Shown here: one piece after another, positions 10,614-40,942 of the stretch | How the letters are laid out: each line of letters begins with the position of its first letter | How positions within the stretch are numbered: position 1 is the stretch's first letter | Source: an uncultured Elusimicrobiaceae bacterium | GTDB lineage: Bacteria; Elusimicrobiota; Elusimicrobia; Elusimicrobiales; UBA9959 | Assembly: GCA_964415175.1 (NCBI GenBank) | Contig: CAYPYG010000003.1 | Span: forward strand, 65,586 to 129,585 | DNA length: 64,000 nucleotides | Direction: 5' to 3' | Made by a program: the position numbers and the translations under genes | Notes under the pieces: generated by a model | What the model saw: only the letters and a program-made list of their open reading frames with translations | The model's database searches: none | Told to the model about the DNA's origin: nothing

Positions 10614-10623
10614 GGCGCGAACG

Positions 10624-19683: not shown

Positions 19684-20959
19684 GCGCTTCCCTAAACTTT
19701 TCAGCCTGCCCTACCAGCTGGGGGTCTACCTCGCGGTGAACGCCGTGAGCGACGCCGGGCTGGTAGTGGACGGCGGGGATTGCGTCATGCCCAAGGCCGA
19801 TTTCATCGCCGGGAACCACGATCTCCGGTCCACGCTGCTTTCCCCCGACGGAAAGCACCGTATCGTCTGCACCATGACCGCCCCCCTGCCCCAGGACTCC
19901 AACCACGAGAGGAAGATCTCTTCGCTGCTGGCCGAGGTCGCCTCGGACGGGGGTTTTTCCGCGGTGCTGGTCACCGGCCTGCCTTTCTTCAAGCTGGCCG
20001 GGGTGGATTACGAGGGCGTCGCCGCGGGGATCACGAAAGGGGCGCCGGTCGCCGATGTGCCGGCCCTTTCGCTGGAGGCCGGCTGGCTGGAGGGCTACGA
20101 CCTGGCGCTGGAAGCGCTGGTCCGGCTGCTGCCGGCCCCGCGCCGCCGCGTCCGCCGTCCCGGTAAGCGGCCCCGCGTGGCCGTCGCCGGTTACCTTTTC
20201 GACCGCGGGGAACGCGATCATGCCGCCAATCTCGCGGAACTGGGCCGCCTGCTGCAACTGAGCGGCCTGGAGCTCGTCTCGGTGCTGCCGTCGGGCGTTC
20301 CCTTCCTGGAACTGGCCCGGGGTCTGGAGGCGGACCTCGTAGTCTCCCTTCCCTACGGCCGCCGTGCCGCCGCGCGGCTGGCCGCCCGCTCCGGCGCCGT
20401 CCTGCTGGAGACGGGGCTGCCGATGGGCCTGAAAGGCACTTCGGCCTGGCTGGCCGCGCTGCGCCGCGCCGCCGGACTCCGGGGAGGGCCGCCGGCCGCC
20501 GTCGCCGCGGAGGAAGTCCTGGCCGCCGGGGAGATGGCCCCGCTGCTGGACGTGCTGGCCCACCGCGGCGCCGTATTCGCCGGAGACCCGCATCTGTTCG
20601 GGGCTTTCGCCTCCTTCGCCGGGGAATTGAAGCTCCGCGTGCCGGCCGCGGTGCTGGATTCCGGCACGCGGGAGAAACTGCCGGTCCGTCCGCCTGAACT
20701 CCTGCTCCTGTGCCCGGACATGGCCGGGGCCGCCGGAGCGGTCGCAGCGCTGGCGGGCTATGACAGGCCTCATCTGCTGGTGGGCAATTCTTTCGCGGCG
20801 ACCGAAGGGCTGGCCCCCGGGCTGCCGTTCGTCGAGCTCGGGTTCCCTTCCTACGGACATCACTGCCTCAACGACGAGCCCTTCCTCGGCTTCGCCGGGG
20901 CCAGGACGCTCGCCGGCAGGATGGCGAACGCCTTAAGGGGCGGCAACGGGCCCCGCTGA
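19661..20959 (+). CDS. NifK/N/BchB-like subunit (copy 2)
   Basis: 432 aa with LVVDGGDCVMPKADFIAGNHDLRSTLL, IVCTMT and ELGFPSYGHHCL. It has the same 23-nt overlap with its upstream fusion gene as copy 1. Confidence 0.7.
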   Translation: MNATSRAERFPKLFSLPYQLGVYLAVNAVSDAGLVVDGGDCVMPKADFIAGNHDLRSTLLSPDGKHRIVCTMTAPLPQDSNHERKISSLLAEVASDGGFSAVLVTGLPFFKLAGVDYEGVAAGITKGAPVADVPALSLEAGWLEGYDLALEALVRLLPAPRRRVRRPGKRPRVAVAGYLFDRGERDHAANLAELGRLLQLSGLELVSVLPSGVPFLELARGLEADLVVSLPYGRRAAARLAARSGAVLLETGLPMGLKGTSAWLAALRRAAGLRGGPPAAVAAEEVLAAGEMAPLLDVLAHRGAVFAGDPHLFGAFASFAGELKLRVPAAVLDSGTREKLPVRPPELLLLCPDMAGAAGAVAALAGYDRPHLLVGNSFAATEGLAPGLPFVELGFPSYGHHCLNDEPFLGFAGARTLAGRMANALRGGNGPR

Positions 20960-23644: not shown

Positions 23645-24945
23645 TGAAGAACGCCGCGGCTCCCGAAAAATTCCGGAAGACCTACGACCCGCCCTACCTG
23701 CTGGGAGTCTATCTCGCGGTCAACGCCGTTCCCGACGCGGCCGTCATGGTGGACGGGCCCAGCTGCGTCATAACGAAAGCGGATTATATCGCCGGCAACC
23801 ACGATCTTCATTCCACGCTTCTCTCCTGCGACGGGCGGCACAGGGTGATGTGCACCGTGACCAGCACGATGCCGCAGCCGCCCAACCCCGAGGATAAACT
23901 GTCCGCGCTGCTGGAAAGCGCGGCCGGTTCCGGCCTCTACGGCGTGGTGCTGCTTACCGGGCTGCCTTTCATGAGGCTTATCGGCATGGATTACGAGGGG
24001 ATAGCCTCCCGCGTCCGTTCCGGCGCGCCGGTAGCCGTCGTGCCCCCGCTTTCCCTGGAGGGCGACTGGCTGGACGGTTACGCGAAGGCGCTGGACGCGC
24101 TGGTCTCCGCGCTGCCCGTCCGCCGGGTACGCAAGAGGCGCCGTTCGGCGGTGATAGCGGGTTATCTTTTCGACAGGAACGAGCGCGACCACTCCGCCAA
24201 CATTTCCGGTCTGAAGCGCCTGCTCGCGGCCGCGGGCGTGGACCTGCTGGCCGTGCTGCCCGGGGGGAAGGAATTCAAAAGCTGGGAGCGCGCCCGGGAG
24301 GCGGAACTGGTCATTTCGATGCCGTACGGCAGGCAGGCCGCCGCGCGGCTGGCCGCCATGACAGGCGCGCGCCTCGTGGAAACTGGTCTTCCCGTCGGGA
24401 TCGGGGGAACGTCCGCCTGGCTGGCCTCCGTAAGGGCCGCCGCGGGACTCAAAGGTCCTCTGCCTCCGGTCCTCGCGGAACTGGAACGGGCGACCAGGCG
24501 TGAACTCGCTCCGGCGCAGGCCGCGCTCGCGCATCATAACATCGTTTTCGCGGGGGACCCTTACCTTTATTCCGCGCTCCGCGGCTTCGCGCTCGAGCTG
24601 TGCATGCGGGTGCCTGCCGCTTTTATCGGCTCTTTAAGCCGCCCGTTGTCCGCACCGGGTCCCGCCGCCAAGCTCGTTATGTTCGCCCCGGAGGTCGCGG
24701 AGGCGGCGGAGGCGCTGGCCGCGCTGGGCCGTTACGACAGGCCGCACCTGGGCGTATGCGATTCGCTGGCCATCACCGCGGGGCTGACCGGCGGTGTTCC
24801 CGCGGTGGAGCTGGGGTTCCCGTCCTACGCCCATCATTGTCTGAGCGACGAGCCTTTTATGGGTTATGAAGGCGCCAGGTCCCTGGCAGGCCGGCTGCTG
24901 AACGCCCTTCAGTCCGCGGAGCCGGCGGCCGACCGCGGGCGATGA
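23644..24945 (+). CDS. NifK/N/BchB-like subunit (copy 3)
   Basis: 433 aa with VMVDGPSCVITKADYIAGNHDLHSTLL, VMCTVT and ELGFPSYAHHCL. The ATG shares one base with the upstream TAA (TAATG). Confidence 0.7.
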   Translation: MKNAAAPEKFRKTYDPPYLLGVYLAVNAVPDAAVMVDGPSCVITKADYIAGNHDLHSTLLSCDGRHRVMCTVTSTMPQPPNPEDKLSALLESAAGSGLYGVVLLTGLPFMRLIGMDYEGIASRVRSGAPVAVVPPLSLEGDWLDGYAKALDALVSALPVRRVRKRRRSAVIAGYLFDRNERDHSANISGLKRLLAAAGVDLLAVLPGGKEFKSWERAREAELVISMPYGRQAAARLAAMTGARLVETGLPVGIGGTSAWLASVRAAAGLKGPLPPVLAELERATRRELAPAQAALAHHNIVFAGDPYLYSALRGFALELCMRVPAAFIGSLSRPLSAPGPAAKLVMFAPEVAEAAEALAALGRYDRPHLGVCDSLAITAGLTGGVPAVELGFPSYAHHCLSDEPFMGYEGARSLAGRLLNALQSAEPAADRGR

Positions 24946-26405: not shown

Positions 26406-27905
26406 TCACCTCGTTCTCCCCGGAAAGTGCTCCAGTTCCACGCGCAGCTTTTTCCCCAGCCAGGCGGCCTTCATGGCCGAATACATGAGGACGGCTTCGG
26501 TCTTTTCTTCCGCCGCCCCGGCGGACCCCAGCACAAGGGTCTTCCGCCCGCCGGGAGAATAAAGGAAGTGGTCCACCTCGCCGCGCAGCCGGGCAAGGGA
26601 GGACTCTTCGCCGGCCTCCAGCCGCAGGCGGCGGACCTCCGCGCCCGCCGCGTGTTTCGGCGCGTGGGGGAAATCCCCGAAACCGGCTTCGCGGGAGAGC
26701 CCGCCGTAAAGCCGGTGCAGTCTGAGGAACCCTCCGGCCTCTTCGCGGAAGACCCTGTTGACCTCGGAGGTGCTCTCCAGGATCCGCTCTATCCGCGCGC
26801 GGGAGTAGCGGTTCACCAGGCCCCAGTAATAGCCCTCCACGGGAGAGCGCGGCCCGGACCGGAACCGGCACTTGCGGTCTATGGCGCGCAGCATCGGCGC
26901 GAAAGCGCGGCGCACCGCCGCGAAGTCTATCCCGCTTTCCAGGTCCCCGACGCGGTACTTTTCCTCCGGCGGGGGCGGGGCGACCACGAAGTCCGGCGAG
27001 GGATAAAAGTGTCCGTCGTAGAGAAGGGCGAGCGTCACGGTGGCCTGTTCCGGCCCCTCGCGGTAGCAGCGGATGTCCTGGCGTACGGGGAAATCGGCGA
27101 AAGCGGCCTCTATCTCCTTAGGGTCGCCCCCGGGAGCGAGGGGGGACAGGAAACCGCGGACGGAGCGCCGCAGGGCCAGGCGCAGACGCCGCAGGCCGGC
27201 GGCGTCCCATTCGCCGAAGGCCTCCAGTCCTATCCTGAGCTTGCGCACCCCCATTTCCCCGCGGAAAAAACGGATCGTGTCCGGCAGGGTAGGGATGGTC
27301 TCCGGGTCCAGGGTCGGGGATATGTTGCAATAGGCCCTGTGGCGCTCCGTGGGGAAGCAGGCGGAGATGTTCTTCATGACGGCGTCGAAGACGGATTTGT
27401 CCCTGTCGTGGGCGAAGACCCGGTGCCTGTCGTTGACCGCCTTCAGTCCGTCCAGGCTTATCCTTATGTCGACTCCGTTGGCGACCAGCCAGTCCGCGCG
27501 CTCCGGGGTCAGCAGCGTGCCGTTCGTGGCGATGGCGAGCTCGAAATCCAGACCGCGCCCGCGGATATACTCCACCGCGCGTTTGAGCGACGAATACTCC
27601 ATGAGCGGCTCGCCCCCGGCGAACTCCAGGCGCACCGGGCCGGCGAACTCCGTCCTTATCGCGCGGTCGGAGGCCAGGAGGTCCACGAAGCGTTCGAGCT
27701 GTTCCGGTGTCAGCTTTCTGGCGGAGCTGTCGTCGCGGAGATGGCGCGAGGAGCAGTAGGAACAGGCCAGGTTGCAGCGGTTGGTCAGGAATACTTCGAC
27801 CTCGAAGGCCGGCCGCGGGACCGGTGAGGCCGCCTTTTTCATTCCGGCGGCCGCCCCGCGGCGGGCGGGAACGGGGCTGTTTGCGCGTGACGTCGTTCTG
27901 CTCAT
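26406..27905 (-). CDS. Radical SAM paralog P3
   Basis: FEVEVFLTNRCNLACSYCSS; GGEPLMEY; SLDGLKAVNDRHRVF; GFGDFPHAPKH; FLYSPGGRKTL; MKAAWLGKKLRV. The start could alternatively be the internal MKKAAS, 21 codons downstream. Confidence 0.8.
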   Translation of the reverse strand: MSRTTSRANSPVPARRGAAAGMKKAASPVPRPAFEVEVFLTNRCNLACSYCSSRHLRDDSSARKLTPEQLERFVDLLASDRAIRTEFAGPVRLEFAGGEPLMEYSSLKRAVEYIRGRGLDFELAIATNGTLLTPERADWLVANGVDIRISLDGLKAVNDRHRVFAHDRDKSVFDAVMKNISACFPTERHRAYCNISPTLDPETIPTLPDTIRFFRGEMGVRKLRIGLEAFGEWDAAGLRRLRLALRRSVRGFLSPLAPGGDPKEIEAAFADFPVRQDIRCYREGPEQATVTLALLYDGHFYPSPDFVVAPPPPEEKYRVGDLESGIDFAAVRRAFAPMLRAIDRKCRFRSGPRSPVEGYYWGLVNRYSRARIERILESTSEVNRVFREEAGGFLRLHRLYGGLSREAGFGDFPHAPKHAAGAEVRRLRLEAGEESSLARLRGEVDHFLYSPGGRKTLVLGSAGAAEEKTEAVLMYSAMKAAWLGKKLRVELEHFPGRTR

Positions 27906-27977
27906 CTTCGGGCCGGGCGCGGGCGGCCGCGGCGCCTTATGATTTTAACACTTTTCCGCGCCGGGTAAGGCCCGCCT

Positions 27978-27990
27978 ATTTAATATAATC
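27978..27990. promoter_or_regulatory. AT-rich element in divergent intergenic region between P3 (-) and P4 (+)
   Basis: Sequence atttaatataatc has TATAAT at 27984-27989, about 50 nt upstream of ATG 28039, which has a GGAGGAAGGAG RBS. It is the only AT island in the 133-nt gap. Confidence 0.3.
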
Positions 27991-28038
27991 TACGCCAGGA
28001 GCGCCGCGCCGCGCGCGGGGAGGAAGGAGCCGCCGGGA

Positions 28039-29427
28039 ATGAAAAAAAAGAGCGTGAAGCCGCAGCACCCCCGTTCGCCTTTCCTGCTGGAACTGGTGCT
28101 CTCCAACCGCTGCAACCTGGCCTGCGACTATTGTTCCTCCTCTTTCCTTCTGAAAGATAAGACCAGGAAGGTCCTTCCGTTCGGAACTCTCCGGCGCGCC
28201 GTCGACCTTTACGCGGTCTGTCTGCAGAAGAACGGCCTCGCCGGTGAGGGGCTCGTCTCCTTCACGGGCAACGAGCCGCTCCTGGATTTCCCGCTGCTGC
28301 GCCGGGTCGTCCGCTATATACGCCGCGCGTACCCCCGGATGAGGATGCGGCTGGATACGAACGGCACACTGCTGGACGCGGGGAAGGCCTCCTTCCTTTC
28401 CCGCAACGGCGTGCGTATCTTCGTCAGCCTGGACGGCTGCCGCGCGGCCCACGACAGGCACCGGACCTTTCCCGGCGGACGCGGGTCCTTCGACGCCGTC
28501 GTCGGGGCGCTCCGCGCTCTGCCGGAAGAGCTGCGCTCGGGCGGGGGACTCTGCGTCTGGTCGGTCGTCACGCCGGAGACCATCGGCCTGCTGCCGGAGT
28601 CCCTGGACCTCTTCCGCGGGCTCGGGGTCGGCACGGTGGTGCTCGGCCTCGAGACCTACGCCAGGTGGGACGCCGCGGCCCTTCGCCGGCTGAAGGCCGC
28701 TTTCCGGCTGTTCAGATCGCGGCCGCTCGAAGCGCTCGGCGGCTCCCCCCCGCCCCGCTTCCTCTTCGGCCTTTCGGGCGCCTCCGATTTCCGCGGGATG
28801 ATCGGGCAGGCCGTCTCGCTGGCGCTGGACGGCCGGTTCTATCCCTGCGATTTCGCCCTCATACCTCCGGGCGGGCGGGACCTCAGCGTGGGGGACCTGG
28901 AGAGCGGCATAGACATGCGGAAGCTGGACCGGATGATCTCGTCGCCCATGTTCCGCCGCATCGAACGCGGCTGCGAGCGCATGTCGGGCCTGCGCGCGCC
29001 GGTGGAGAGATATTACCGCGGGCTTTCCCTGGGGCTTTCCGGGCGGGAACTCTCCCGCGACCTGCGGGACACTTCCAGGGTCAACCTGCTTTTCGCGCGG
29101 GAGATGTCCGGTTATCTCGGACTGCTGGAGACCGGCGAGCGGCTGGCGACCGCTCCCGGTTTCGGCGACCTGGCCCACTCTCCCAAGTATTCCGCGGACA
29201 AGACCGCGGCCGCGTTCAGGCTGCGTCCGGGCGGCGCGCCGCTTTCCGCGCAGCGCGCCGGCCTGGACCTTTTCCTGTACGCGCCCGGCCGGAGAAAATC
29301 CCTGACCCTCGGGTTCGCGGCCGGGGACGACGCGGCCCGCGGGCCGGCCGCCGACCTCTGCGCTTATTCACTGGCCAAGGCCGGCCTGCTGGGCCTGAAA
29401 CTCGCCGTCAGCCTGGAGCCGGAGTGA
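28039..29427 (+). CDS. Radical SAM paralog P4
   Basis: LLELVLSNRCNLACDYCSS; TGNEPLLDF; SLDGCRAAHDRHRTF; GFGDLAHSPKY; FLYAPGRRKSL. Confidence 0.85.
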   Translation: MKKKSVKPQHPRSPFLLELVLSNRCNLACDYCSSSFLLKDKTRKVLPFGTLRRAVDLYAVCLQKNGLAGEGLVSFTGNEPLLDFPLLRRVVRYIRRAYPRMRMRLDTNGTLLDAGKASFLSRNGVRIFVSLDGCRAAHDRHRTFPGGRGSFDAVVGALRALPEELRSGGGLCVWSVVTPETIGLLPESLDLFRGLGVGTVVLGLETYARWDAAALRRLKAAFRLFRSRPLEALGGSPPPRFLFGLSGASDFRGMIGQAVSLALDGRFYPCDFALIPPGGRDLSVGDLESGIDMRKLDRMISSPMFRRIERGCERMSGLRAPVERYYRGLSLGLSGRELSRDLRDTSRVNLLFAREMSGYLGLLETGERLATAPGFGDLAHSPKYSADKTAAAFRLRPGGAPLSAQRAGLDLFLYAPGRRKSLTLGFAAGDDAARGPAADLCAYSLAKAGLLGLKLAVSLEPE

Positions 29428-30692
29428 GAGGGGATTTCCTGCTGGAGGTCTTCATCGGATGGCCCGGCTGCGGGAACGGGACCTCCGGGATCGCGCCGGA
29501 ACTCCTGCGCCGGGCGCTGGTCCGCGCGCGGCGCTTCGCCGGCCGGGGCGGGCGTTTCAAGATCGTTTTCACCGGCGGAGAGCCGCTCGGGGACCCCGGC
29601 CCGCTGTTCCGGCTGCTCCGGGCGGCGCGCCGCGCGGTCCCTTCGGCGGAACTGGAGGTCGTCTCCTCCGCGGAACTGCTGACCCCGCGGACCGTCCGGG
29701 ACCTGGTCTCCGCCGGCGCGGAGATAAGCGCCCGTTTCGACCTGCGCGGCGGCCGCCGCGCCCGCGCGGTCGTCCCCGCCCCTCTGGCCGCGACGATGTC
29801 CGACGGACGTCTCGCCGCGAGGGTGCACGCCGCCGCCGTTCTCGATTCGCGTTCGATAGGACGCCTGCCGGAGATCGCCCGCCTCCTCGGAGCACGCTCC
29901 GGGTTCAAGCAGCTGGAGATAGCGCTGGACGCCGGGGTAACATGGACCCCCGCCGCTCTGGACCGGCTGCGCCTGGAGCTGAAAGGCCTGAAAAGGTCCG
30001 CGGCCGCGGCGCTCGCCGCCGGCGGCCCGCCCGCCGGTTTTATTTTCAGCGGTTTCTCCGGGGCGCCCGCCGAGGAGGACCCGGGCCGGGCCCTCACGCT
30101 GTTCCCCGACGGGAGTTTCTTCCCGTCCGACCTGGCGACCCTGCCGCCGCTGCGGCGCTTCGCGGCCGGGGACGCCGCGGGGGGCATAGACGCTTCCCGG
30201 CTGCGCCGCCTGGCGGCCTTTCAGTCCGGGCTGGCCCGGAAGTACGGTGCGGGGCCCGTTTCGCCGGCCGAGAGTTACGCCCTGGGCGCCGCGCGCGGGC
30301 TTTCAGGGCGCGCGCTCGAGGGTTTCCTGGAGGGCGCCGCCCGCGTCAACCGGGTCTTCGCGGAGGAGGCCGGACCGCTGTTCTTCCTGGCCGGTATTTT
30401 CGCCCGCCTGCGCCGCGAACCCGGTTTCGGCGACCTGGTCCATCCGCCCAAATACGCCGCCCCGGTGCTCATGAGGGAGATGGCCATCGCCTGCGACGGT
30501 CCCGCGCCGGCCTCCCTGCGGGCCTGCGCCGACCTTTTCCTGCGGTCCCCCGGCGCGGCCAAGAGACTCTCGCTGGGAGGCCGGCCGGGTTCCCCGGCGG
30601 TCCCCCTCGCGGCCTACCTGCTGGCCGCCTCGCTGCTGCTCGGAAGGAAGTCCGCTCTTTCGATGATCCCTCCCGCCGGCCGTTCTCGCTAG
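29424..30692 (+). CDS. Degenerate paralog P5 lacking the CxxxCxxC radical-SAM cluster motif
   Basis: GTG start overlaps the P4 stop (GTGA 29424-29427). FLLEVFIGWPGCGNGTSG replaces TNRCNxxCxYC. It keeps TGGEPLG, GFGDLVHPPKY and FLRSPGAAKRL. The track ORF from 28665 is out-of-frame overlap with P4. Confidence 0.7.
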   Translation: MRGDFLLEVFIGWPGCGNGTSGIAPELLRRALVRARRFAGRGGRFKIVFTGGEPLGDPGPLFRLLRAARRAVPSAELEVVSSAELLTPRTVRDLVSAGAEISARFDLRGGRRARAVVPAPLAATMSDGRLAARVHAAAVLDSRSIGRLPEIARLLGARSGFKQLEIALDAGVTWTPAALDRLRLELKGLKRSAAAALAAGGPPAGFIFSGFSGAPAEEDPGRALTLFPDGSFFPSDLATLPPLRRFAAGDAAGGIDASRLRRLAAFQSGLARKYGAGPVSPAESYALGAARGLSGRALEGFLEGAARVNRVFAEEAGPLFFLAGIFARLRREPGFGDLVHPPKYAAPVLMREMAIACDGPAPASLRACADLFLRSPGAAKRLSLGGRPGSPAVPLAAYLLAASLLLGRKSALSMIPPAGRSR

Positions 30693-30697
30693 CTTTC

Positions 30698-30712
30698 TTA
30701 TTTTATTGTATC
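30698..30712 (+). promoter_or_regulatory. AT-rich promoter-like element upstream of AKR gene
   Basis: Sequence cttattttattgtatca has ATTGTA at 30705-30710, within the 102-nt gap after P5. Confidence 0.25.
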
Positions 30713-30723
30713 ATTGGCATAAG

Positions 30724-30766
30724 AGCCGCTGTGATGCATTCCGTAACCGCATTCGGCGGCTTTTTT
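30724..30766 (+). terminator. Terminator-like hairpin plus T-run (terminator or leader attenuator)
   Basis: AGCCGC (30724-30729) pairs with GCGGCT (30756-30761), with partial inner pairing (GATGC/GCATT). It is followed by TTTTTT (30761-30766). It lies downstream of the AT-rich element and 29 nt upstream of ATG 30795. Confidence 0.45.
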
Positions 30767-30794
30767 CAAGCCCCGGCGGCGGGGAGCTCCGGTC

Positions 30795-32090
30795 ATGAAA
30801 AAAAGGAAACTGGGAAATACAGGGCTCCGCGTCTCCGTGCTGGGTTACGGTTCGGGGGTGCTGAGTTCCGTTCCTCCGGGGGAGCCTTCGGCGGCGCGTC
30901 TCCTCAACCGGCTTCTCGACTCCGGCGTCAACTATATCGACACCTCGCCCGACTACGGCAGCAGCGAAGAGCTCATCGGCCGGGCCCTGTCCGGGAGGAG
31001 GAGCGAGTTCTTCCTGGCCACCAAGTGCGGCTGCCCGGACAGGGGCTGGAGCCGCGGACATGTCTGGACCGCCGCCAGACTGCTGCACAATATCGAGAAC
31101 AGTCTGCGCCGCCTGAAGACCTCCTGCGTCGACGTGTGGCAGCTCCATAATCCGCCCCCGGAACTGGTCCGGCGCGGCGGCCTGCTGGAGGTCATGGAGA
31201 AGGTGCGGCGGCAGGGGAAGGCCCGTTTCGTTTCCGTCAGCACTTTTCTGCCCGACGCGGAGGAGTACATCGGCTGGGGGGCTTTCGACGTGTTCCAGCT
31301 GCCCTACGGCGCGCTGGACCGGCGCAACGAGTCCGCGGTCGCCGCGGCCTCCTGTTCAGGGGCCGGCGTGGTGGTCCGAGGGAGCATAGCGGAGGGCGAG
31401 CCGAAAGGCGCGCTTTCGCGCGACAGGCTCTGGAAGTTCTGGGCGGCGGCCGGCCTCGACGGCCTGCGCCCGGAGGACGAGAGCCGGACGGCTTTCCTGC
31501 TGCGCTTCGCTCTTTCCAACCCGGACGTGGACACCGCCGTCCTCGGTACCCGTTCTTCCGCGCATCTGGACGAGGCCGTGCGGGCGGCCGAAGCCGGTCC
31601 TCTGCCCGCGGAACTGGTCCGGGAGGTCCGCCGCAGGCTGGACGCCGCGGGCTGCCCGTCCGCGCCTCCCCGCGGGCGCAGGAAAGCCGGCGGCGGGCCG
31701 GGCAGCGTCGAAGTCGAGGTGAAGCCGGCGGAGGCCGCCTGCCTGCCGGCGCTCGTCGAGTCCGCCGCCGCGGGCGGCGCGCGGATCAGGCTGCGCCCAG
31801 GGACCGGCCCCTGGGACAGGTCGTCCCTGGCGGCCCTAAGGCGCGGTCTGGCCGGCCTCGGCAAGACCATTATCTCGGGCGTCGCCAGGGGGCGCCGCCT
31901 GCACCTGGACGGCGCCGGCGGCCGCGCGGCTTCGGGGACGGGCCCGGCGGCGGAGGAACTTCGCCGGGGGCTGGACAGGATAGCGGAAGGAGTGGAGTCG
32001 CTGGCGGACAGAAGCAAGGCGTTCAGGGAGTACCTCGACGAAGCCGCGGGCGGCCGCGGCGTGCGGGGGCGCGGACGCGGCAAGAGGTAA
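30795..32090 (+). CDS. Aldo/keto reductase with ~140-aa C-terminal extension related to the locus-specific module
   Basis: AKR N-terminus KLGNTGLRVSVLGYG, then NYIDTSPDYG and VDVWQLHN. The extension (~31665-32090) has LRRGLAGLGKTII and KAFREYLDEA, matching LRAGLAGLGQLLL / PAFKAYLAAL of 42353-43135. Confidence 0.8.
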   Translation: MKKRKLGNTGLRVSVLGYGSGVLSSVPPGEPSAARLLNRLLDSGVNYIDTSPDYGSSEELIGRALSGRRSEFFLATKCGCPDRGWSRGHVWTAARLLHNIENSLRRLKTSCVDVWQLHNPPPELVRRGGLLEVMEKVRRQGKARFVSVSTFLPDAEEYIGWGAFDVFQLPYGALDRRNESAVAAASCSGAGVVVRGSIAEGEPKGALSRDRLWKFWAAAGLDGLRPEDESRTAFLLRFALSNPDVDTAVLGTRSSAHLDEAVRAAEAGPLPAELVREVRRRLDAAGCPSAPPRGRRKAGGGPGSVEVEVKPAEAACLPALVESAAAGGARIRLRPGTGPWDRSSLAALRRGLAGLGKTIISGVARGRRLHLDGAGGRAASGTGPAAEELRRGLDRIAEGVESLADRSKAFREYLDEAAGGRGVRGRGRGKR

Positions 32091-32099
32091 GGAGAGGCC

Positions 32100-34283
32100 A
32101 TGAAAAGCACTTATACCGAACAGGTCGGCATGACCAACGCTCTTTCGATAGAGATCTTCATCACCAACCGCTGCAGCATGGACTGTTCCTACTGCTCGTC
32201 GCGGTACATGATACACGAGAAGGACGCCAGGCGCCTGAGCTTCGAGCAGCTCAAGGTCGCCTTCGACGCGCTGGACCGCGATCCCTACATCAAAAAGCAT
32301 TTCGGCGGCAAGGTGCACGTGGACCTGACCGGCGGCGAGCCGCTGATAGAGTACGAGACCATAAAACAGATCGTGGCCTACGTGCGGGCCAACCTGAAGC
32401 TCGAATACGAGTTCGAGCTGGAGACCAACGGCACGCTGCTCACCGAGGAGCGGATAAAGTACCTCATCGACAACAAGATAGAGATACGGCTCAGCCTCGA
32501 CGGCTACAAGGCCCAGAACGACAAGCACCGCCGGTTCCGCAACGCCAGCGACGCCTCCGCCTACGAGGCCATCATCCGCAAGATGAAAATGGGCCTTATC
32601 GGGACCAGGCACATGGACCTGGTCTATGTCGGGGCCATACTGGACGCGGAGGACTTCCAGAACCTGCCCAAGGTGATGGACTATTTCAAGAACGAACTGG
32701 GCTTCAGGCGCATGGAGATAGGTCCGTCGGCCTACGAGCTCTGGGACGAGGCGGCCATCGCCCGTCTCCGCAAGGCCCTGCGCAGCATGACGCCCGAGCT
32801 GATGGCCACGCTGGAGCACCAGATGGGCATCAATAAGCGCGAGTCCGTCTTCCACGAATTCCTCTTCACCCAGTCGAAGACCATCGGCACGGCCTACGAG
32901 GACCTGGCCAAGAAGACCATAACCCTGTTCTACGACGGCTGCTGGTACATGTGCGACTTCGTGGTCAAGCCGCCGCTCGACCCGAAGTTCCGCGTCGGGG
33001 AGCTGAAGAAAGGGATAGATTTCGGCCGCATCCGGACGATAAGCCGCTACCCGATGTTCAAGGAGATCTACTCCAAGTGCGAGCACCGCTCCGGGTTCTT
33101 CTCCCCCGTAGAGGGTTATTACTGGGGAGTGGTCCATAAGTTCACGCCGAAACAGCTCGACGACATGATGTGGAACACCTCCAACATGAACAAGGTCCTG
33201 GGCGAGGAGGTCGGCTGGTACACCAAGCTGCAGAAGACCTATTACGACCTTTACATGAAGCCCGGCTTCGGCGACTTCGGCCACGACCCCAAGCATAAGG
33301 CCGGCAAGGAGATGCGCACGCTCCGCCTGTCGGTCAGCGACTCGTCCGATATCGTCAGGCTGAGGGCCGCGGTGGACTTCTTCCTCTACTCGCCCGGCGA
33401 CCGCAAGCGCCTGGTCATGGACGCCACCGACAACGGCGCGGAGACCGCGCGGATAGTCGAAGGCATGGTCCTCTACTCGCTGGTCAAGACCGGCAAGGGC
33501 TACCTGGACAAGAAGCTCCGCCTGATGCTGGAGACCGACGCGAAGGGTTTCGACGACGACAACTGGCGCTTCCTCGACGACCACGGCGTGCAGGTCGGCA
33601 TCAAGGCGGCCTCCCGCTACAGCGCCGCCACGGCCTACCGCCGCAGCTACCAGATGGACGCCGCCCTGAACACGGTCGACAGCACCTACGCCGTGCCCGG
33701 CGTCACGCGGCGCAACGCGCGGAACCTGCCGACCCTGGTGGAGGCGGCCGTGCGCAACGGCTGCCGCTGGGTGCGGCTGGAACTGTCGGGCCGCGAGGAC
33801 TGGCGCGACGCCGACATCGCGGGGCTGCGCTCCGGGATGGAGAAGCTCGGCCAGGCGCTCGTGGCCGGCATCGCCAAAGGAGAGCCGGTTTACCTGCTTA
33901 ACTTCGAGGAGGCCGAAACCCCCGCCGGCTGCCCCGTCTTCGCCGATTCCTTCCTGGCCGACGGCGGCGGCGACTACAGGCTTGTCCCGCCGCAATGGCG
34001 CTATGACGGCCGCGGCGTGAAGGTCGGCGATTTCGACCGCGGCGTCGGGGAGCTCGCCGGCTGCGCCTGGTCCGCCGCTTCGGGGACCTGCGCGGCCTGC
34101 GCGCGCCGGCCGGCCGCCGCCGGTTACGACGCCTGGGCGGAGCGGGAATTCTCCGCGGGGCTGCGCAGGGCGCTGGAAGGCATCAGATACCTGGCCGCCA
34201 AAAAGAAGCCCTTCGCCGCCTACCTGGAGGCCCTGCGCTCCGACAGGGAGAGGGTCTCGGGGCTGCTCATAAACAAGAAATGA
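32100..34283 (+). CDS. Radical SAM paralog P6 fused to C-terminal Cys4 module
   Basis: SIEIFITNRCSMDCSYCSS; TGGEPLIEY; SLDGYKAQNDKHRRF; GFGDFGHDPKH; FLYSPGDRKRL. Then a ~220-aa extension carries AGCPVF...YRLVPPQWRYDGRGVKVG...GCAWSAASGTCAAC...FAAYLEAL. AAGGAGAGG RBS. Confidence 0.85.
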   Translation: MKSTYTEQVGMTNALSIEIFITNRCSMDCSYCSSRYMIHEKDARRLSFEQLKVAFDALDRDPYIKKHFGGKVHVDLTGGEPLIEYETIKQIVAYVRANLKLEYEFELETNGTLLTEERIKYLIDNKIEIRLSLDGYKAQNDKHRRFRNASDASAYEAIIRKMKMGLIGTRHMDLVYVGAILDAEDFQNLPKVMDYFKNELGFRRMEIGPSAYELWDEAAIARLRKALRSMTPELMATLEHQMGINKRESVFHEFLFTQSKTIGTAYEDLAKKTITLFYDGCWYMCDFVVKPPLDPKFRVGELKKGIDFGRIRTISRYPMFKEIYSKCEHRSGFFSPVEGYYWGVVHKFTPKQLDDMMWNTSNMNKVLGEEVGWYTKLQKTYYDLYMKPGFGDFGHDPKHKAGKEMRTLRLSVSDSSDIVRLRAAVDFFLYSPGDRKRLVMDATDNGAETARIVEGMVLYSLVKTGKGYLDKKLRLMLETDAKGFDDDNWRFLDDHGVQVGIKAASRYSAATAYRRSYQMDAALNTVDSTYAVPGVTRRNARNLPTLVEAAVRNGCRWVRLELSGREDWRDADIAGLRSGMEKLGQALVAGIAKGEPVYLLNFEEAETPAGCPVFADSFLADGGGDYRLVPPQWRYDGRGVKVGDFDRGVGELAGCAWSAASGTCAACARRPAAAGYDAWAEREFSAGLRRALEGIRYLAAKKKPFAAYLEALRSDRERVSGLLINKK

Positions 34284-37251: not shown

Positions 37252-38648
37252 TAGTCAACCCTCTGCGCGCCGACCACCGCCCGCGGGAGGAGTTCCTGCT
37301 CGAGGTCTTCCTTACCAACCGCTGCAACCTGGACTGCTCGTACTGCTCCTCGCGGCGGATGATAGACGAGCCGGCGCGGCGCGCCCTTTCTTTCGGGCAG
37401 GTGCGGCGCGCGGTGGACGTCTTCGCCGCCTACGGGCGCCGCCGCGGCGCGCGCCAGGAGCGCACCGTCTTTTTCACCGGCGGCGAGCCTTTCCTGGAAT
37501 ACGACGTTCTCCGGCGCTCCGTGGAGTACATCGACTCCCTGCCGGGCGGGTTCCGCGTCAGGATAGCCACCAACGCGACGATGCTGGACCCGGCGAGGGT
37601 GAAGTTCCTGCTGGACCATGACGTCCGGATATTCGTCAGTCTCGACGGCTGCCGGAAAGCGCACGACCGCCACCGGGTCTCCCGCGGCGGCCGCGGCTCC
37701 TTCACGGAGATAGACCGGGCGTTGCGCCGGCTGCCGCGCTCCGTGCGCGGCGGGCCCAATTTCTGCGTTTCCGCCACCTTCACCTCCGAGACCGCGAAGT
37801 GGCTTCCCGAGAGCCTGGATTACTTCCGGGACCTGGGCATAAGAGTGGTCGAGATCTGCCCCGAGGCCTACGAGGTCTGGCGGCCGGCGGACATAGCCCG
37901 CGCGGCCGCGGTGCTGGCCCGCGTGGCGAGGGAGCGCCTCTACCGCCGCTTCGAAGGGGAGGCCGGCGGGCCGCAGTTCGTGTTCTCCAATAGTTCGGCC
38001 CCCGACAACTCGAAATGGGCCGTCGCCGACTACAGGGATACCCTGCTGCACAGCGTCAGTTTCATGTACGACGGCTTTTTCTATCCCTGCGAGGCGGTCT
38101 TCGGCGGCGGGACGGAGGCCGCCTACCGCATCGGCGACGCGGAGCGCGGCATAGACCGGCGGCGGGCGGAGAAAGTGTACGCGGCCGCGCTCGCGCGCAT
38201 ACGCCGCTGCGCCCCCTCGGTCGGCACGCTGCTGACGGCAGGGCGCTATTATTACGCCGTGAACGCCGGGCTCGACCCGGCGGAATATTTCGACAACGCC
38301 CGCCGGGTTAACGAGGCCTTCGACTCGGCGTTGGGAGGCTGCCTGCGCGCCCAGCTGCTGCATGACCGCGTCACGGCGCTGCCCGATTTCGGCGATTTCG
38401 CTCACGCTCCCCGCCTCGCCTCCCGGCGGGAGCTCCCCGCCCTAAGGCTGGAAGCTGCGCCCGGCTCCGACCCGGCCCGCCTGCGGGCCTGCGTCGACCA
38501 TTTCCTGTACTCTCCCGGCGCGCGAAAGGCGCTGGCCATCCGCCGCGCCGCCGGCGCGGAGGAAGTATCCTCGGCCCTGGCGCTGTACGCCCTTTCCAAG
38601 GCGGGCCGCCTGCGCAAAAGACTTTCCGTCAGGACGGAGGCGGCGTGA
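37248..38648 (+). CDS. Radical SAM paralog P9
   Basis: FLLEVFLTNRCNLDCSYCSS; TGGEPFLEY; SLDGCRKAHDRHRVS; DFGDFAHAPRL; FLYSPGARKAL. ATGA overlap at 37248-37251. Confidence 0.85.
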   Translation: MIVNPLRADHRPREEFLLEVFLTNRCNLDCSYCSSRRMIDEPARRALSFGQVRRAVDVFAAYGRRRGARQERTVFFTGGEPFLEYDVLRRSVEYIDSLPGGFRVRIATNATMLDPARVKFLLDHDVRIFVSLDGCRKAHDRHRVSRGGRGSFTEIDRALRRLPRSVRGGPNFCVSATFTSETAKWLPESLDYFRDLGIRVVEICPEAYEVWRPADIARAAAVLARVARERLYRRFEGEAGGPQFVFSNSSAPDNSKWAVADYRDTLLHSVSFMYDGFFYPCEAVFGGGTEAAYRIGDAERGIDRRRAEKVYAAALARIRRCAPSVGTLLTAGRYYYAVNAGLDPAEYFDNARRVNEAFDSALGGCLRAQLLHDRVTALPDFGDFAHAPRLASRRELPALRLEAAPGSDPARLRACVDHFLYSPGARKALAIRRAAGAEEVSSALALYALSKAGRLRKRLSVRTEAA

Positions 38649-40942
38649 AGGATGCCGCCGTCAGACCGCCGGAGCGGGAGGTCGAGGTCCACGGGCCTTC
38701 GCTGACCCCGGCGAAGGCCGCCCCGCTGCTGCGTACGGGCGCCGAGGTCTGGGCCGTTTTCGAAGGCGCGGCCGGCGCGCGCGCTACGGCGGCCGCGCTC
38801 GCCGCCCTTCCCCCGGACCTGCTCCGGCGGGTATGCGTGTCCGGCGTTTTCGGCCCCGCCGACGCCGGCTCGCTGCTGCGCTCCGCCCGGCTCTTCCGCA
38901 AGACGGACATAAAAGAACTGGTCTTCGAACTGGACGCGCGCGCCGCGTGGAGGGGAAAGGGGCTGGCGCGGCTGCGCGCGGAGCTGAAGCGGATAGCCCT
39001 GGACTTCGCCCGCGAACTGCGGTCGGGTTCGTTCCCGTGGCCGCAGCCGAGCCGCCTCTACGGCATCGACCTGGCCGGAGGTTCCTTCGCCCCGCCCGGC
39101 GCAGCCGCCGCGGTAAGGAAGGAGATCGGGCCTTTCGCCGCCATAGAGAGGAAGCTCCGCCGCCTGGCCGCCGGGGACGCGGCCGGGGCCCTGGAATTCT
39201 TCCAGCCCCTCACGGCCCGCGGCTTCCGCGGCCGTATCGGGCGCAAGGCGGAGACTCTCAGGCGGCTGGCCGCGTCCGGCAGGGCCGTGCCGCCGTCCTA
39301 CGTGCTTTCGGCGGGAACGCTGCGGCGCCTGTCGCCGGCGCTCGGCGCGGACCGGCGGGGGCCGTCCCCGCGCGGCGCCGGCCTCCGGTTCCTGGCCGAA
39401 CTGCGCGGGCTTTTCCCGGCGGGCCGCCGCTTCATCGTCAGGAGTTCCTCCGCCGAAGAGGACGGGCCGGGCGCTTCCTTCGCCGGGGTCTTCCGCTCGG
39501 AAGTGGTCGCTTCGCCGGGCGCCGCTCCCGCCGCGATACGGCGCTGCCTGGTCTCCGGGCGGGACGCGGGAGCGGCCGCCTACAGGCGTCTCGCCGGCCG
39601 CGGCCGGCGGCCCGCCGGAGGCATGGCGCTGCTGTTCCAGCCTTTCGTAGAGACCGGGCTCGGGGGCGTCGCCGTCTTCGACGGGCAGGGCCGGGCCGTC
39701 ATGGAACTTTCCCGCGGCGGCAACGACGGCATAACGGGCGGCCGTTCCGCCGACTGGCGTTATACTCTCGACGCGCGCGCCCGCCGCCTGGACTGCCCGC
39801 CGCGCTCCCCGCTGTCCCGTTCCGCGGCCGCGCGGCTGCTCTCGGCGCTGGCCTCCGCGAAGAGCGCTCTGTTCCCGTCGGGCGCCGCCTCGTTCGAATT
39901 CCTGGCCGGGGAAGGAGAACCCCTTTTCCTGCAGGCGCGCCCCCTGCCGCGCGCGCCCGAAGAGCCGCGCGCGGACATGCCGGCCGTCTACGCGCGCATA
40001 GCGGCGGCCATGGCCGGCCTCGGCCTCGGGCCGCGCGGCTGGAGCCTGGCCGAGACGGCGGACGTGGCGGCCTTCAATTTCCTCGGCCTCGCGCGGCCGG
40101 CGGGAGAACGCCTGGAACATTTCCGCGTCAGGATAAGCCGCGCGGCCAGGGAGAAGATCTCCCCGCGCGGCTGGGTCAGCGTCAAGTACGACGACGACGA
40201 CGACACTCTTTTTCCCTCCGGGCTCCCGCCGCTCCGCCGCGCCGCGCTGGAACGCCTGGCCGAAGAGGGGATATTCGTCATTTTCGTGCTGCCGAAAGAA
40301 GGCGAGACGGTCCTGCGGAGGACGCTCTCTTTCCCCGCGCCGGGCGGCCGGCTGCGCGTCCCGTTCTCCTATTCCCCCGAAGGGCTGGAGAAGGAGGAGG
40401 AACGCGACCTGCTCCGGCGCGGCCCGGCGGAGGCGGCCGCCTGGCTGAGGCGCCTGGCCCGCGAACGGGAGATCTGGCTGGGCGTGCGCCGCGTCGTCCG
40501 GGCCGGAAAGACCGGGGCCTACGGCCGGGCGCTGGCCCGCTTCCTCCCGGGGGAACTGGCGCTCATAGCGCGCAAGGAGCGGCTGGCGCGCCGCGCGGCC
40601 GCGCGCGCTCCCGGGGACGGCGCCGCGGTAAAAGGGCTGCCTTTCCGCCCGTCCGACGCGGTAGTCTCCGGCGTGGCCGTGACGGCCGCCCGGGCCGCCG
40701 CCTGGAAAGGCGGACCCTTCGTCTATTTCGGCCACGACCTGGAGCCCTGTTTCCTGCCGCTGATGGGCCGCATAAAGGCGGTCGTCGTCTCGCGGGGGGC
40801 CTTCGGTTCCCACGCGGCGCAGATCTGCTCGGAACTCGGCGTCCCGCTGATACTCGAAACGTCCAACCTGGGCCTGGTCAGGGACGGCGACCGGGTCGCG
40901 CTGGACCTGCGCACCGGGGAAGTGAGGAGGAAGCCGGAATGA
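38645..40942 (+). CDS. PEP-utilising-enzyme-like phosphotransferase (ATP-grasp PPDK_N-type domain + C-terminal swivel-His domain, no TIM-barrel domain)
   Basis: GTG start with GTGA overlap at 38645-38648. The central region has RIGRKAETLRRLAASGRAVPPSYVL and FIVRSSSAEEDGPGASFAGVF (PpsA/PPDK nucleotide-binding domain). The C-terminal end has VVVSRGAFGSHAAQICSELGVPLIL (phospho-His mobile domain). The N-terminal ~190 aa are unassigned. Confidence 0.75.
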   Translation: MKDAAVRPPEREVEVHGPSLTPAKAAPLLRTGAEVWAVFEGAAGARATAAALAALPPDLLRRVCVSGVFGPADAGSLLRSARLFRKTDIKELVFELDARAAWRGKGLARLRAELKRIALDFARELRSGSFPWPQPSRLYGIDLAGGSFAPPGAAAAVRKEIGPFAAIERKLRRLAAGDAAGALEFFQPLTARGFRGRIGRKAETLRRLAASGRAVPPSYVLSAGTLRRLSPALGADRRGPSPRGAGLRFLAELRGLFPAGRRFIVRSSSAEEDGPGASFAGVFRSEVVASPGAAPAAIRRCLVSGRDAGAAAYRRLAGRGRRPAGGMALLFQPFVETGLGGVAVFDGQGRAVMELSRGGNDGITGGRSADWRYTLDARARRLDCPPRSPLSRSAAARLLSALASAKSALFPSGAASFEFLAGEGEPLFLQARPLPRAPEEPRADMPAVYARIAAAMAGLGLGPRGWSLAETADVAAFNFLGLARPAGERLEHFRVRISRAAREKISPRGWVSVKYDDDDDTLFPSGLPPLRRAALERLAEEGIFVIFVLPKEGETVLRRTLSFPAPGGRLRVPFSYSPEGLEKEEERDLLRRGPAEAAAWLRRLAREREIWLGVRRVVRAGKTGAYGRALARFLPGELALIARKERLARRAAARAPGDGAAVKGLPFRPSDAVVSGVAVTAARAAAWKGGPFVYFGHDLEPCFLPLMGRIKAVVVSRGAFGSHAAQICSELGVPLILETSNLGLVRDGDRVALDLRTGEVRRKPE

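What the first reader, a model, noticed from the sequence alone, without database searches (positions are those of the whole stretch)
29424..30692. Paralog P5 has lost the radical-SAM cysteine triad but keeps an intact, translationally coupled ORF
P5 aligns with its neighbours (FLLEVF..., TGGEPLG, GFGDLVHPPKY, FLRSPGAAKRL). However, TNRCNxxCxYC is replaced by IGWPGCGNGTSG, so it cannot bind the SAM-cleaving [4Fe-4S] cluster in the usual way. It still has a 422-codon open frame, and its GTG start overlaps the P4 stop. This pattern suggests a non-catalytic scaffold or chaperone partner (pseudo-enzyme) rather than a decaying pseudogene.
Basis: partly seen in the sequence, partly recalled or inferred. 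Interest (0 to 1): 0.6.

Follow-up and report, generated by a model that had tools for sequence, protein, structure and literature searches.

The report
Conserved cysteine-less radical-SAM paralogue (pseudoenzyme)
One of sixteen neighbouring radical-SAM enzyme genes in an Elusimicrobia nitrogenase-like gene cluster has lost the residues needed for radical chemistry, yet related genomes have kept it intact under selection, so it is most likely a non-catalytic helper protein and not a dead gene.

Summary
P5 (29424-30692, +) is a 422-codon ORF. Its GTG start overlaps the TGA stop of P4 (GTGA). Of 16 tandem paralogues of a rare ~450-aa radical-SAM family, it is the only one without CxxxCxxC. It has also lost the TNGTLL and SLDG..HDxHR core motifs.

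All six orthologous loci, down to ~30% identity, lack the triad, share the same in-frame deletions and sit directly after a P4 orthologue. dN/dS is 0.36-0.52 with bootstrap upper bounds of 0.76 or less. This is roughly 1.2-1.9 times the P4 value for the same genome pairs. The window's own terminal branch also shows purifying selection (p~1e-4).

Loss is selective. P5 keeps 8 of 26 family-conserved core positions but 29 of 32 in the rest of the protein, including GFGDxxHxP. AlphaFold gives a confident radical-SAM/SPASM-like fold. A conserved hairpin plus T-run follows P5, so P4-P5 looks like a two-gene operon.

P5 is therefore a maintained pseudoenzyme. Its role as a P4 partner or scaffold is inferred, not shown. 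The N-terminal relic drifts neutrally and erodes further in distant lineages. Cysteine-less radical-SAM homologues are already a curated category (TIGR04347), so this is a new member of a known kind.

The parts
29424..30692 (+). P5 coding sequence: 422 codons, GTG start, TAG stop. A radical-SAM-family paralogue without the CxxxCxxC triad.
   Evidence: coding GC3 pattern; dN/dS
28039..29427 (+). P4: the upstream 462-aa radical-SAM paralogue with an intact triad (CNLACDYC). It has GNE in place of GGE. It is the presumed partner of P5.
   Evidence: orthologues always directly precede P5 orthologues
29424..29427 (+). GTGA overlap of the P5 start and the P4 stop (translational coupling).
   Evidence: identical junction in L001 and L006; 4-nt overlaps in L001, L003-L007 by gene coordinates; 23-nt and 8-nt gaps in L002 and L013
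29414..29417 (+). GGAG Shine-Dalgarno-like element 6 nt upstream of the GTG, inside the end of P4.
29424..29558 (+). N-terminal relic, residues 1-45: the beta1 strand FLLEVF is kept, the cluster loop is replaced by IGWPGCGNGTSG with a 13-14-aa deletion, followed by helix 1. This segment evolves near-neutrally.
   Evidence: omega 0.87 and 1.7 with CI 0.39-5.6; pLDDT below 50 at residues 14-20; partly lost in L002 and L013
29574..29585 (+). Retained GGEP (GGE) motif, residues 51-54.
   Evidence: becomes GGEH in L002 and TGEP in L013
29664..29681 (+). SSAELL in place of the family-invariant TNGTLL (beta3).
29733..29741 (+). RFD in place of SLDG (beta4), followed by an 11-aa deletion that removes the invariant D..HR.
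30264..30689 (+). Family-specific C-terminal module, residues 281-422: two long helices, the GFGDLVHPPKY loop at 30423-30455, and a beta-alpha-beta-alpha-beta unit with DLFLRSPG and Y398. The family-conserved residues are almost all retained.
   Evidence: no PDB fold match
30725..30766 (+). Hairpin (GCCGC...GCGGC) followed by T6. This is a likely intrinsic terminator closing the P4-P5 unit.
   Evidence: conserved in all six loci, with a different stem sequence in L013. The generic scan did not call it and the single-sequence fold is not significant.
27906..28038 (.). A 133-nt divergent intergenic region between the minus-strand paralogue (26406-27905) and P4. It is the presumed promoter region of P4-P5.
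   Evidence: no sigma-70-type match found there
38645..39190 (+). Relic of a second, independent cysteine-less paralogue (P0027 clade), about 182 codons, fused in frame to the PPDK_N/PEP-utilizers gene (38645-40942).
   Evidence: full-length cysteine-less orthologues at L014 2615-3955 and L013 15391-16731

Best explanation
P5 is a catalytically dead descendant of the locus's radical-SAM enzyme family, kept as a working protein. Shown: it lacks all three cluster cysteines and most SAM-pocket residues. It keeps the family's non-catalytic residues and predicted fold. This cysteine-less state is old and is conserved under purifying selection. Its gene is always placed directly behind P4, with overlapping or nearly abutting stop and start codons. 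Inferred: P4 and P5 are made together from a two-gene operon, and P5 acts without radical chemistry as a partner subunit of P4 or of the pathway. In that role it would use the retained half-barrel, the SPASM-like bridge and the GFGDxxHxP C-terminal module. It might hold the unknown substrate or intermediate, or it might dock P4 to other enzymes of the Group VI nitrogenase-like / radical-SAM pathway.
For: All orthologues are cysteine-less and share the same two deletions. The P5 clade is monophyletic, 99.5% bootstrap. No triad-bearing close relative appears among 1.84e9 representative proteins. Pairwise dN/dS is 0.36-0.52 with bootstrap CIs excluding 1. For residues 46-422 omega is 0.41, CI 0.32-0.52. 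On the window's own terminal branch, nonsynonymous:synonymous changes are 20:26 or 12:20 against a neutral 2.39:1, p~1e-4. All indels are in frame. Loss is selective: 8 of 26 conserved core columns are kept against 29 of 32 elsewhere, Fisher p=4e-6. The AlphaFold model has pLDDT 83 and pTM 0.81, with a (beta/alpha)6 core. Its best Foldseek matches are CteB, anSME, TigE and ChlB. The synteny P4-P5-spacer is conserved. The GTGA junction is identical in L001 and L006, and gene coordinates show the same 4-nt overlap in L003-L007. A hairpin plus T-run after P5 is conserved in six loci. Other cysteine-less fragments of the same barrel are fused to non-radical-SAM enzymes of the locus: the PPDK-like N-terminus, and the AKR and 727-aa C-terminal extensions. 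This is consistent with a docking or structural use of the fold.
Against: There is no expression, protein or interaction data. The partner role rests on gene order alone. By tree, P5 is not a sister of P4: bootstrap for a P5+P4 grouping is 0.5%. Constraint is weaker than on the neighbours: omega is about 0.4, against 0.2-0.3 for P4 and the AKR and 0.15 for the 727-aa gene. Composition drifts toward GC-rich codons, with Ala at 18% and raised GC1/GC2. The protein keeps shrinking in distant lineages: beta1 is lost in L002 and about 100 aa are lost in L013. The second cysteine-less paralogue is truncated in this very window, so such paralogues can be dispensable. The function of the whole family and locus is unknown.
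Confidence: 0.55

Rival explanations
1. P5 is functional but neofunctionalised. On this reading the old barrel now binds a different ligand or catalyses non-radical chemistry, independently of P4.
For: Purifying selection acts across residues 46-422 including the former barrel; omega is 0.29 for residues 111-200. Clade-specific conserved charged residues replace pocket residues: the T of TNGT becomes E/D, and the S of SLDG becomes R. P5 is not phylogenetically close to P4.
Against: P5 matches no known catalytic or binding family in Pfam, NCBIfam or PDB sequence searches. It has no conserved Cys or His cluster; only C357 is conserved among close orthologues and it is absent in L013. The pocket-region motifs continue to decay in L002 and L013. 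The strict P4-P5 linkage is unexplained by this reading.
Confidence: 0.25
2. P5 is a pseudogene in slow decay, and the open frame is an accident of 70% GC.
For: Long spurious ORFs are common in this window; for example, alternative frames of 563 and 675 aa overlap P5. The catalytic motifs are gone. The N-terminal segment is neutral, composition has drifted and distant orthologues are shortened. A 1-nt deletion occurred at the 5' end in L002.
Against: dN/dS is significantly below 1 in every pair and on the window's own branch. The frame is intact in seven loci spanning dS of 1 or more, with only in-frame indels. Non-catalytic family residues are retained at 91%. The L002 lesion is repaired by a new ATG with a perfect GGAGG Shine-Dalgarno element. 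The start-stop coupling and the terminator are conserved.
Confidence: 0.07
3. P5 is still a radical-SAM enzyme that binds a cluster through non-canonical ligands or shares one across a dimer interface.
For: GGEP is retained in the closest orthologues. Precedents exist for non-CX3CX2C cluster binding in the superfamily (own knowledge, not tested here).
Against: The window copy has only 3 Cys. The one in the old loop (C15) is Gly in every orthologue that retains this segment. Only C357 is conserved among close orthologues and it is absent in L013. The ribose and adenine motif positions are replaced or deleted. GGE itself degrades in L002 and L013.
Confidence: 0.03

Closest known systems
TIGR04347 family 'pseudo-SAM/SPASM protein' (NCBIfam; name seen)
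   Same: It is a curated family of radical-SAM/SPASM homologues named as pseudo-enzymes. It belongs to the same general kind: a radical-SAM fold kept without radical-SAM function.
   Different: P5 does not match that model; its only NCBIfam hit is HxsC at E 0.059. P4, not P5, is not listed as hitting it; the paralogue at 37248 hits it only weakly (45 bits against a 525 cutoff). P5 arose independently inside a different, rare family. What TIGR04347 proteins do and how they are paired is recalled from memory, not tested here.
SPASM/twitch peptide-modifying radical-SAM enzymes (anSME 4K37, CteB 5WGG, ChlB 9GM3, TigE 8VPO)
   Same: They are the best structural matches of the P5 model, Foldseek E 5e-8 to 3e-6, TM about 0.5. 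They are also the best sequence matches of the active neighbour P4. They share the partial TIM barrel followed by a bridging domain with the G-x4-C-like element (DGxFYPC/S).
   Different: P5 has no radical-SAM cluster site. The whole window family lacks the 7-Cys SPASM auxiliary-cluster motif. The family carries an extra C-terminal GFGDxxHxP module with no PDB match.
HemW, the HemN-like radical-SAM-fold haem chaperone (PMC10114771, PMC10114718)
   Same: It is a radical-SAM-fold paralogue of a tetrapyrrole enzyme that is described as a chaperone or carrier and not as the parent oxidase. This is a functional precedent if the locus makes a tetrapyrrole cofactor, as proposed in bioRxiv 10.1101/765248.
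   Different: HemW keeps the radical-SAM cluster motif and belongs to the HemN subfamily. P5 has no cluster site and is unrelated beyond the superfamily. The analogy is by function only.
NifEN relative to NifDK (scaffold paralogue of a catalytic complex; established knowledge)
   Same: It is a duplicated enzyme paralogue that lost catalytic ligands and serves as an assembly scaffold in a nitrogenase-type pathway.
   Different: It has a different fold and different chemistry. There is no evidence here that P5 carries an intermediate.

Membership tests
Catalytic radical SAM enzymes (PF04055) | CxxxCxxC (or a variant three-Cys) site for the SAM-cleaving [4Fe-4S] cluster after beta1 | tested here: not met
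   Absent in P5 and in all orthologues. The single Cys in the old loop is not conserved.
Catalytic radical SAM enzymes (PF04055) | Pfam Radical_SAM score above the gathering threshold | tested here: not met
   17.1 bits against a 29.5 cutoff. There is no hit at all for the L002 and L013 orthologues.
Catalytic radical SAM enzymes (PF04055) | SAM-binding motifs: GGE, the beta4 ribose motif, and the beta3/beta5/beta6 contacts | tested here: not met
   GGEP is kept in close orthologues only. TNGTLL, SLDG and D..HR are replaced or deleted.
Catalytic radical SAM enzymes (PF04055) | Partial (beta/alpha)6 TIM-barrel fold | tested here: met
   The AlphaFold model shows six beta-alpha units, pLDDT 83. 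Foldseek finds radical-SAM/SPASM structures at E down to 5e-8.
SPASM / twitch domain proteins | Cys-rich motif binding one or two auxiliary [4Fe-4S] clusters | tested here: not met
   P5 has FFPS where some paralogues have FYPC, and YG where some have RKC. Even the active paralogues keep at most 1-2 of these Cys.
The window's NFL-associated radical-SAM paralogue family (unnamed; 62 representatives in 1.84e9 proteins) | Family-specific residues outside the SAM pocket: W174, DGxFxP, GFGDxxHxP, R366, DxxLxSPG, Y398 | tested here: met
   29 of 32 conserved columns are retained. The profile search returns only this family.
TIGR04347 pseudo-SAM/SPASM | Match to the NCBIfam model | tested here: not met
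   No hit at E of 0.1 or less.
Pseudogene | dN/dS near 1, frameshifts or stops, loss in related genomes | tested here: not met
   Omega is 0.36-0.52 with CIs below 1. The frame is intact in seven loci. The only out-of-frame lesion, at the 5' end in L002, is bypassed by a new start.
Obligate partner subunit of P4 | Physical association or co-dependence with P4 | not testable with these tools
   Only adjacency, coupling and a shared operon are shown.

The most novel reading that the evidence does not exclude
Cysteine-less pieces of this radical-SAM barrel are a deliberate building block of the locus. There are four of them: P5 at full length, the relic fused to the PPDK-like enzyme, and the beta5-alpha6-like C-terminal extensions on the aldo-keto reductase and on the 727-aa radical-SAM protein. 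They could serve as homotypic docking or scaffold modules. Such modules would assemble the 16 radical-SAM paralogues and the Group VI nitrogenase-like proteins into one assembly line. P5 would be a NifEN-like carrier on which the unknown cofactor or peptide is built.
Probability: 0.12. Interest if true: 0.7.

Novelty: new member of a known kind. Interest (0 to 1): 0.45.

Why it matters
The Group VI nitrogenase-like / radical-SAM clusters of Elusimicrobia are an unsolved pathway, proposed to make an unknown tetrapyrrole-type cofactor (bioRxiv 10.1101/765248; PMC13474568). Knowing that one of the radical-SAM genes is a conserved non-enzyme has three consequences. It changes how the pathway should be reconstituted: P4 may need P5. 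It corrects the count of catalytic steps. It also offers a natural handle for pulling down the complex or the substrate, because a cluster-free, oxygen-insensitive family member may still bind them. More generally, it is a clean case, quantified by sequence, of a radical-SAM pseudoenzyme in which catalytic motifs were lost selectively and the rest of the protein is retained.

Tried and rejected
1. P4-P5 heterodimer model. With window paralogues as extra rows, MAFFT placed them all on the P5 half, leaving P4 without depth. I abandoned this and used the second structure job for the C-terminal module instead.

3. The C-terminal module gave no significant PDB match, best E 0.23, so no function can be read from it.

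4. The generic terminator scan did not call the post-P5 hairpin, and the single-sequence fold is not better than shuffles, z -1.46. The terminator reading rests on cross-locus conservation.

5. Scans of genome contigs and metagenome contigs added only one new locus, L012.

6. Literature searches for radical-SAM pseudoenzymes found nothing directly relevant.

7. I tested the idea that P5 is a recent duplicate of P4 and rejected it; bootstrap for a P5+P4 grouping is 0.5%.

8. I tested the idea that the two cysteine-less clades share one loss event. The tree does not support it, with 5.5% bootstrap. The shared SLDG-to-RF(D/N/T) change keeps it open.

9. YN00 failed on the most divergent pairs because of saturation, so only NG86 values are quoted for L002.
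Full report
**1. The observation**

The window is about 68% GC. Reading 29340-30800 shows ...CCGGAGTGAGAGGGGATTTCC.... The P4 stop TGA is at 29425-29427. A GTG at 29424-29426 opens a frame that runs to the TAG at 30690-30692, giving 422 codons. A GGAG lies 6 nt upstream of the GTG.

BLASTP of P4 against all long ORFs of the window finds 16 paralogues of one family, and P5 matches P4 at 33% identity over 372 aa, E 1e-28. A motif scan and alignment show CxxxCxxC in 15 of the 16 and none in P5.

The damage to the core is wider than reported:
- There is a 13-14-residue deletion at the cluster loop.
- TNGTLL is replaced by SSAELL.
- SLDG is replaced by RFD.
- An 11-residue deletion removes the invariant D..HR.

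Pfam Radical_SAM scores only 17.1 bits against a cutoff of 29.5, while the neighbours score 54-71 bits. Codon-position GC in the P5 frame (0.76/0.60/0.86) is that of a real gene, and the overlapping alternative ORFs lack this pattern.

**2. Where it sits**

The window is a Group VI nitrogenase-like (NFL) locus of an Elusimicrobia genome. It holds three NifH-fused NflD-like genes, each with an NflK-like partner (877-4669, 17215-20959, 21023-24945). Beside them lie the 16 radical-SAM paralogues, an aldo-keto reductase (30795-32090) and a PPDK_N/PEP-utilizers protein (38645-40942).

This is the arrangement described by Meheust et al. (bioRxiv 10.1101/765248) and reviewed in PMC13474568. The product is unknown, and a tetrapyrrole-type cofactor has been proposed.

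The radical-SAM family itself is rare. A profile search of 1.84 billion representative proteins returned only 62 hits. The nearest solved relatives of the active member P4 are SPASM-type peptide-modifying enzymes: ChlB, CteB and anSME. However, the family lacks the SPASM cysteines and carries its own C-terminal module.

**3.

A homologue search found P5 orthologues at 87, 86, 80, 74 (a partial sequence) and 57% identity. The exhaustive profile search added a form at about 30% identity (P0012, L013).

All of them lack the triad and share the same two deletions. In every locus the gene lies directly after a P4 orthologue. Where the contig extends far enough, a spacer of about 100-120 nt follows, and then the AKR and/or the 727-aa radical-SAM gene.

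The GTGA junction is identical in L001 and L006, and gene coordinates show the same 4-nt overlap in L003-L007. L013 has an 8-nt gap.

In L002 a 1-nt deletion plus further small deletions have pushed the old beta1 codons into a 23-nt spacer. There the relic ...CTGGAGGT... supplies a perfect GGAGG in front of a new ATG.

In an NJ tree the P5 clade, including L013, is monophyletic with 99.5% bootstrap and sits on a long branch. It is not sister to P4; bootstrap for that grouping is 0.5%. No triad-bearing close relative exists in the database: the next hit scores 202 bits against 720 for the clade representative. The loss is therefore old, not a strain-specific lesion.

**4. Selection**

Pairwise NG86 dN/dS values (bootstrap CIs):

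| Gene | dN/dS |
|---|---|
| P5 | 0.36-0.52 among the four close lineages (bootstrap 95% upper bounds of 0.76 or less; no replicate reached 1); 0.31-0.38 in comparisons with L002 |
| P4 | 0.20-0.31 |
| AKR | 0.19-0.26 |
| 727-aa paralogue | 0.15 |

P5 exceeds P4 in 88-98.5% of paired bootstraps. P5 is thus constrained, but less so than its neighbours: omega is about 1.2-1.9 times that of P4 and dN about 1.5-2.4 times.

Constraint is uneven along the protein. Residues 2-45, the old cluster loop and its flanks, give omega 0.87, or 1.7 with CI 0.39-5.6, which is indistinguishable from neutral. Residues 46-422 give 0.41, CI 0.32-0.52.

On the window's own terminal branch there are 20 nonsynonymous and 26 synonymous codon changes, or 12 and 20 with a different outgroup. 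The neutral expectation is 2.39:1, giving binomial p~1e-4. The copy in this window is therefore itself still under selection.

Signs of relaxation are also clear. Ala makes up 18% of the protein, and GC1 and GC2 are raised relative to the neighbours.

**5. What was lost and what was kept**

There are 58 alignment columns that are at least 85% conserved in 31 active family members. P5 keeps 8 of the 26 in the cluster/SAM core and 29 of the 32 in the rest of the protein. The retained residues include W174, DGxFxP, GFGDxxHxP, R366, DxxLxSPG and Y398. Fisher's exact test gives p=4e-6.

The window copy has only three Cys. The one in the old loop is Gly in every orthologue that retains this segment. 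Only C357 is conserved among close orthologues, and it is absent in L013. GGEP survives in close orthologues but becomes GGEH in L002 and TGEP in L013. Cluster binding and SAM cleavage by P5 are therefore very unlikely. This conclusion is an inference from sequence.

**6. Fold**

AlphaFold2 with a 20-sequence alignment gives pLDDT 83 and pTM 0.81. The model has six beta-alpha units, a bridging region with short strands, two long helices and a terminal beta-alpha-beta-alpha-beta unit. The old cluster loop, residues 14-20, is disordered.

Foldseek against the PDB returns CteB, anSME, TigE, ChlB and EpeE, with E 5e-8 to 5e-5 and TM about 0.5. By sequence the P5 profile has no significant PDB relative. 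The C-terminal module modelled alone (pLDDT 87) has no significant PDB match. It is a family-specific domain of unknown role that P5 retains.

**7. Operon structure**

P4 is preceded by a 133-nt divergent intergenic region. P5 is followed by a spacer of about 100 nt that contains a GC-rich hairpin and T6 (30725-30766).

The hairpin plus T-run is present after P5 in all six loci. In L013 the stem sequence differs (ACCGCC...GGCGGT) but the structure and T-run remain. The generic scan missed it, and the single-sequence fold is not significant, so the terminator reading rests on conservation. Most other genes of the cluster abut or overlap one another, which makes P4-P5 look like a discrete two-gene unit.

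**8. Related oddities that bear on mechanism**

A second cysteine-less clade exists, represented by P0027 at L014 2615-3955 and by L013 15391-16731. In it LEIKLNSKDNLAGPADG replaces TNRCNLxCxYC. It always lies just upstream of the PPDK-like gene. The tree does not unite it with P5, with 5.5% bootstrap.

In this window that paralogue survives only as a relic of about 182 residues fused in frame to the PPDK-like protein.

The C-terminal extensions of the AKR and of the 727-aa paralogue share a module (E 5e-9). That module aligns to the beta5-alpha6 part of the family barrel, with hhalign probability 76% and E 2e-5.

Non-catalytic pieces of this barrel therefore recur in the locus and are fused to other enzymes. 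This fits a structural or docking use. It also shows that such paralogues can be truncated.

**9. Verdict**

P5 is best described as a conserved radical-SAM pseudoenzyme co-expressed with P4. Its actual role (partner subunit, substrate holder or scaffold) is inferred from linkage and from the pattern of retained residues, and it remains to be tested.

Cysteine-less radical-SAM/SPASM homologues are already a curated category (TIGR04347, name seen). HemW is a precedent for a radical-SAM-fold chaperone. This is therefore a new, independently arisen member of a known kind. Its interest is moderate, and comes mainly from its place in an unsolved pathway.

Noticed in passing
window 38645-40942 (relic = 38645-39190): The 765-aa PPDK_N/PEP-utilizers ORF begins with about 182 residues that are a truncated relic of a second cysteine-less radical-SAM paralogue. 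The relic is 36% identical to P0027 residues 91-237, E 6e-19. In L013 and L014 that paralogue is a separate 446-aa gene overlapping the PPDK-like start. From residue 183 onward the window protein is 53% identical to the 558-aa L014 PPDK-like protein, and there is no Met at that point.
   Followed up: partly
L014 2615-3955; L013 15391-16731: This is a second clade of triad-less paralogues. LEIKLNSKDNLAGPADG replaces TNRCNLxCxYC, and GFGDxxH is changed to GFGNFMR. Like P5 it has SLDG changed to RF(N/T). The NJ tree does not group it with P5 (5.5% bootstrap), so the shared change could be convergence or unresolved shared ancestry.
   Followed up: partly
window 31695-32087 and 33540-34280: The C-terminal extension of the aldo-keto reductase and that of the 727-aa radical-SAM paralogue share a module (E 5e-9). 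The module aligns to the beta5-alpha6 segment of the family barrel (hhalign probability 76%, E 2e-5). It appears to be another cluster-free fragment of the fold, reused as an appended domain.
   Followed up: partly
window 44552-45865: This paralogue keeps CxxxCxxC but has a deletion that removes the GFGDFxHxP motif, which is otherwise conserved in 0.90-0.97 of active family members. A 441-aa representative (P0025) shows the same state.
   Followed up: no
window 28039-29427 (P4), residues 76-80: P4 and its orthologues carry TGNEP or TANEP in place of the GGEP motif found in all other window paralogues. The active partner of P5 therefore has an unusual SAM-amino-binding motif.
   Followed up: no
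window 877-4669, 17215-20959, 21023-24945: There are three sets of a NifH-like domain fused to an Oxidored_nitro (NflD-like) domain, each of 822-873 aa. Each is followed by a 432-437-aa NflK/BchN-like protein whose gene overlaps or abuts the fusion gene's stop. These are the Group VI nitrogenase-like systems.
   Followed up: partly
window 8845-11865 and 15567-17210: Upstream of the first paralogue lie a poly-gamma-glutamate-hydrolase-like protein, an amino-acid-kinase-like protein and a PLP-dependent (PALP) enzyme. A TPR protein sits between paralogue 14149-15666 and the second NflH fusion. These are possible accessory genes of the pathway.
   Followed up: no
P0007 (964 aa): In another genome, two complete copies of the family are fused in a single polypeptide. 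Both have CxxxCxxC and GFGDFxHEP. This suggests that family members can function as covalently or non-covalently paired units.
   Followed up: no
L002 5990-6487 and L013 3922-4413, 5813-6385: Small ORFs of 163-190 aa with no Pfam hit lie between the minus-strand radical-SAM paralogues in related loci. The window lacks the third minus-strand paralogue and its small companion.
   Followed up: no
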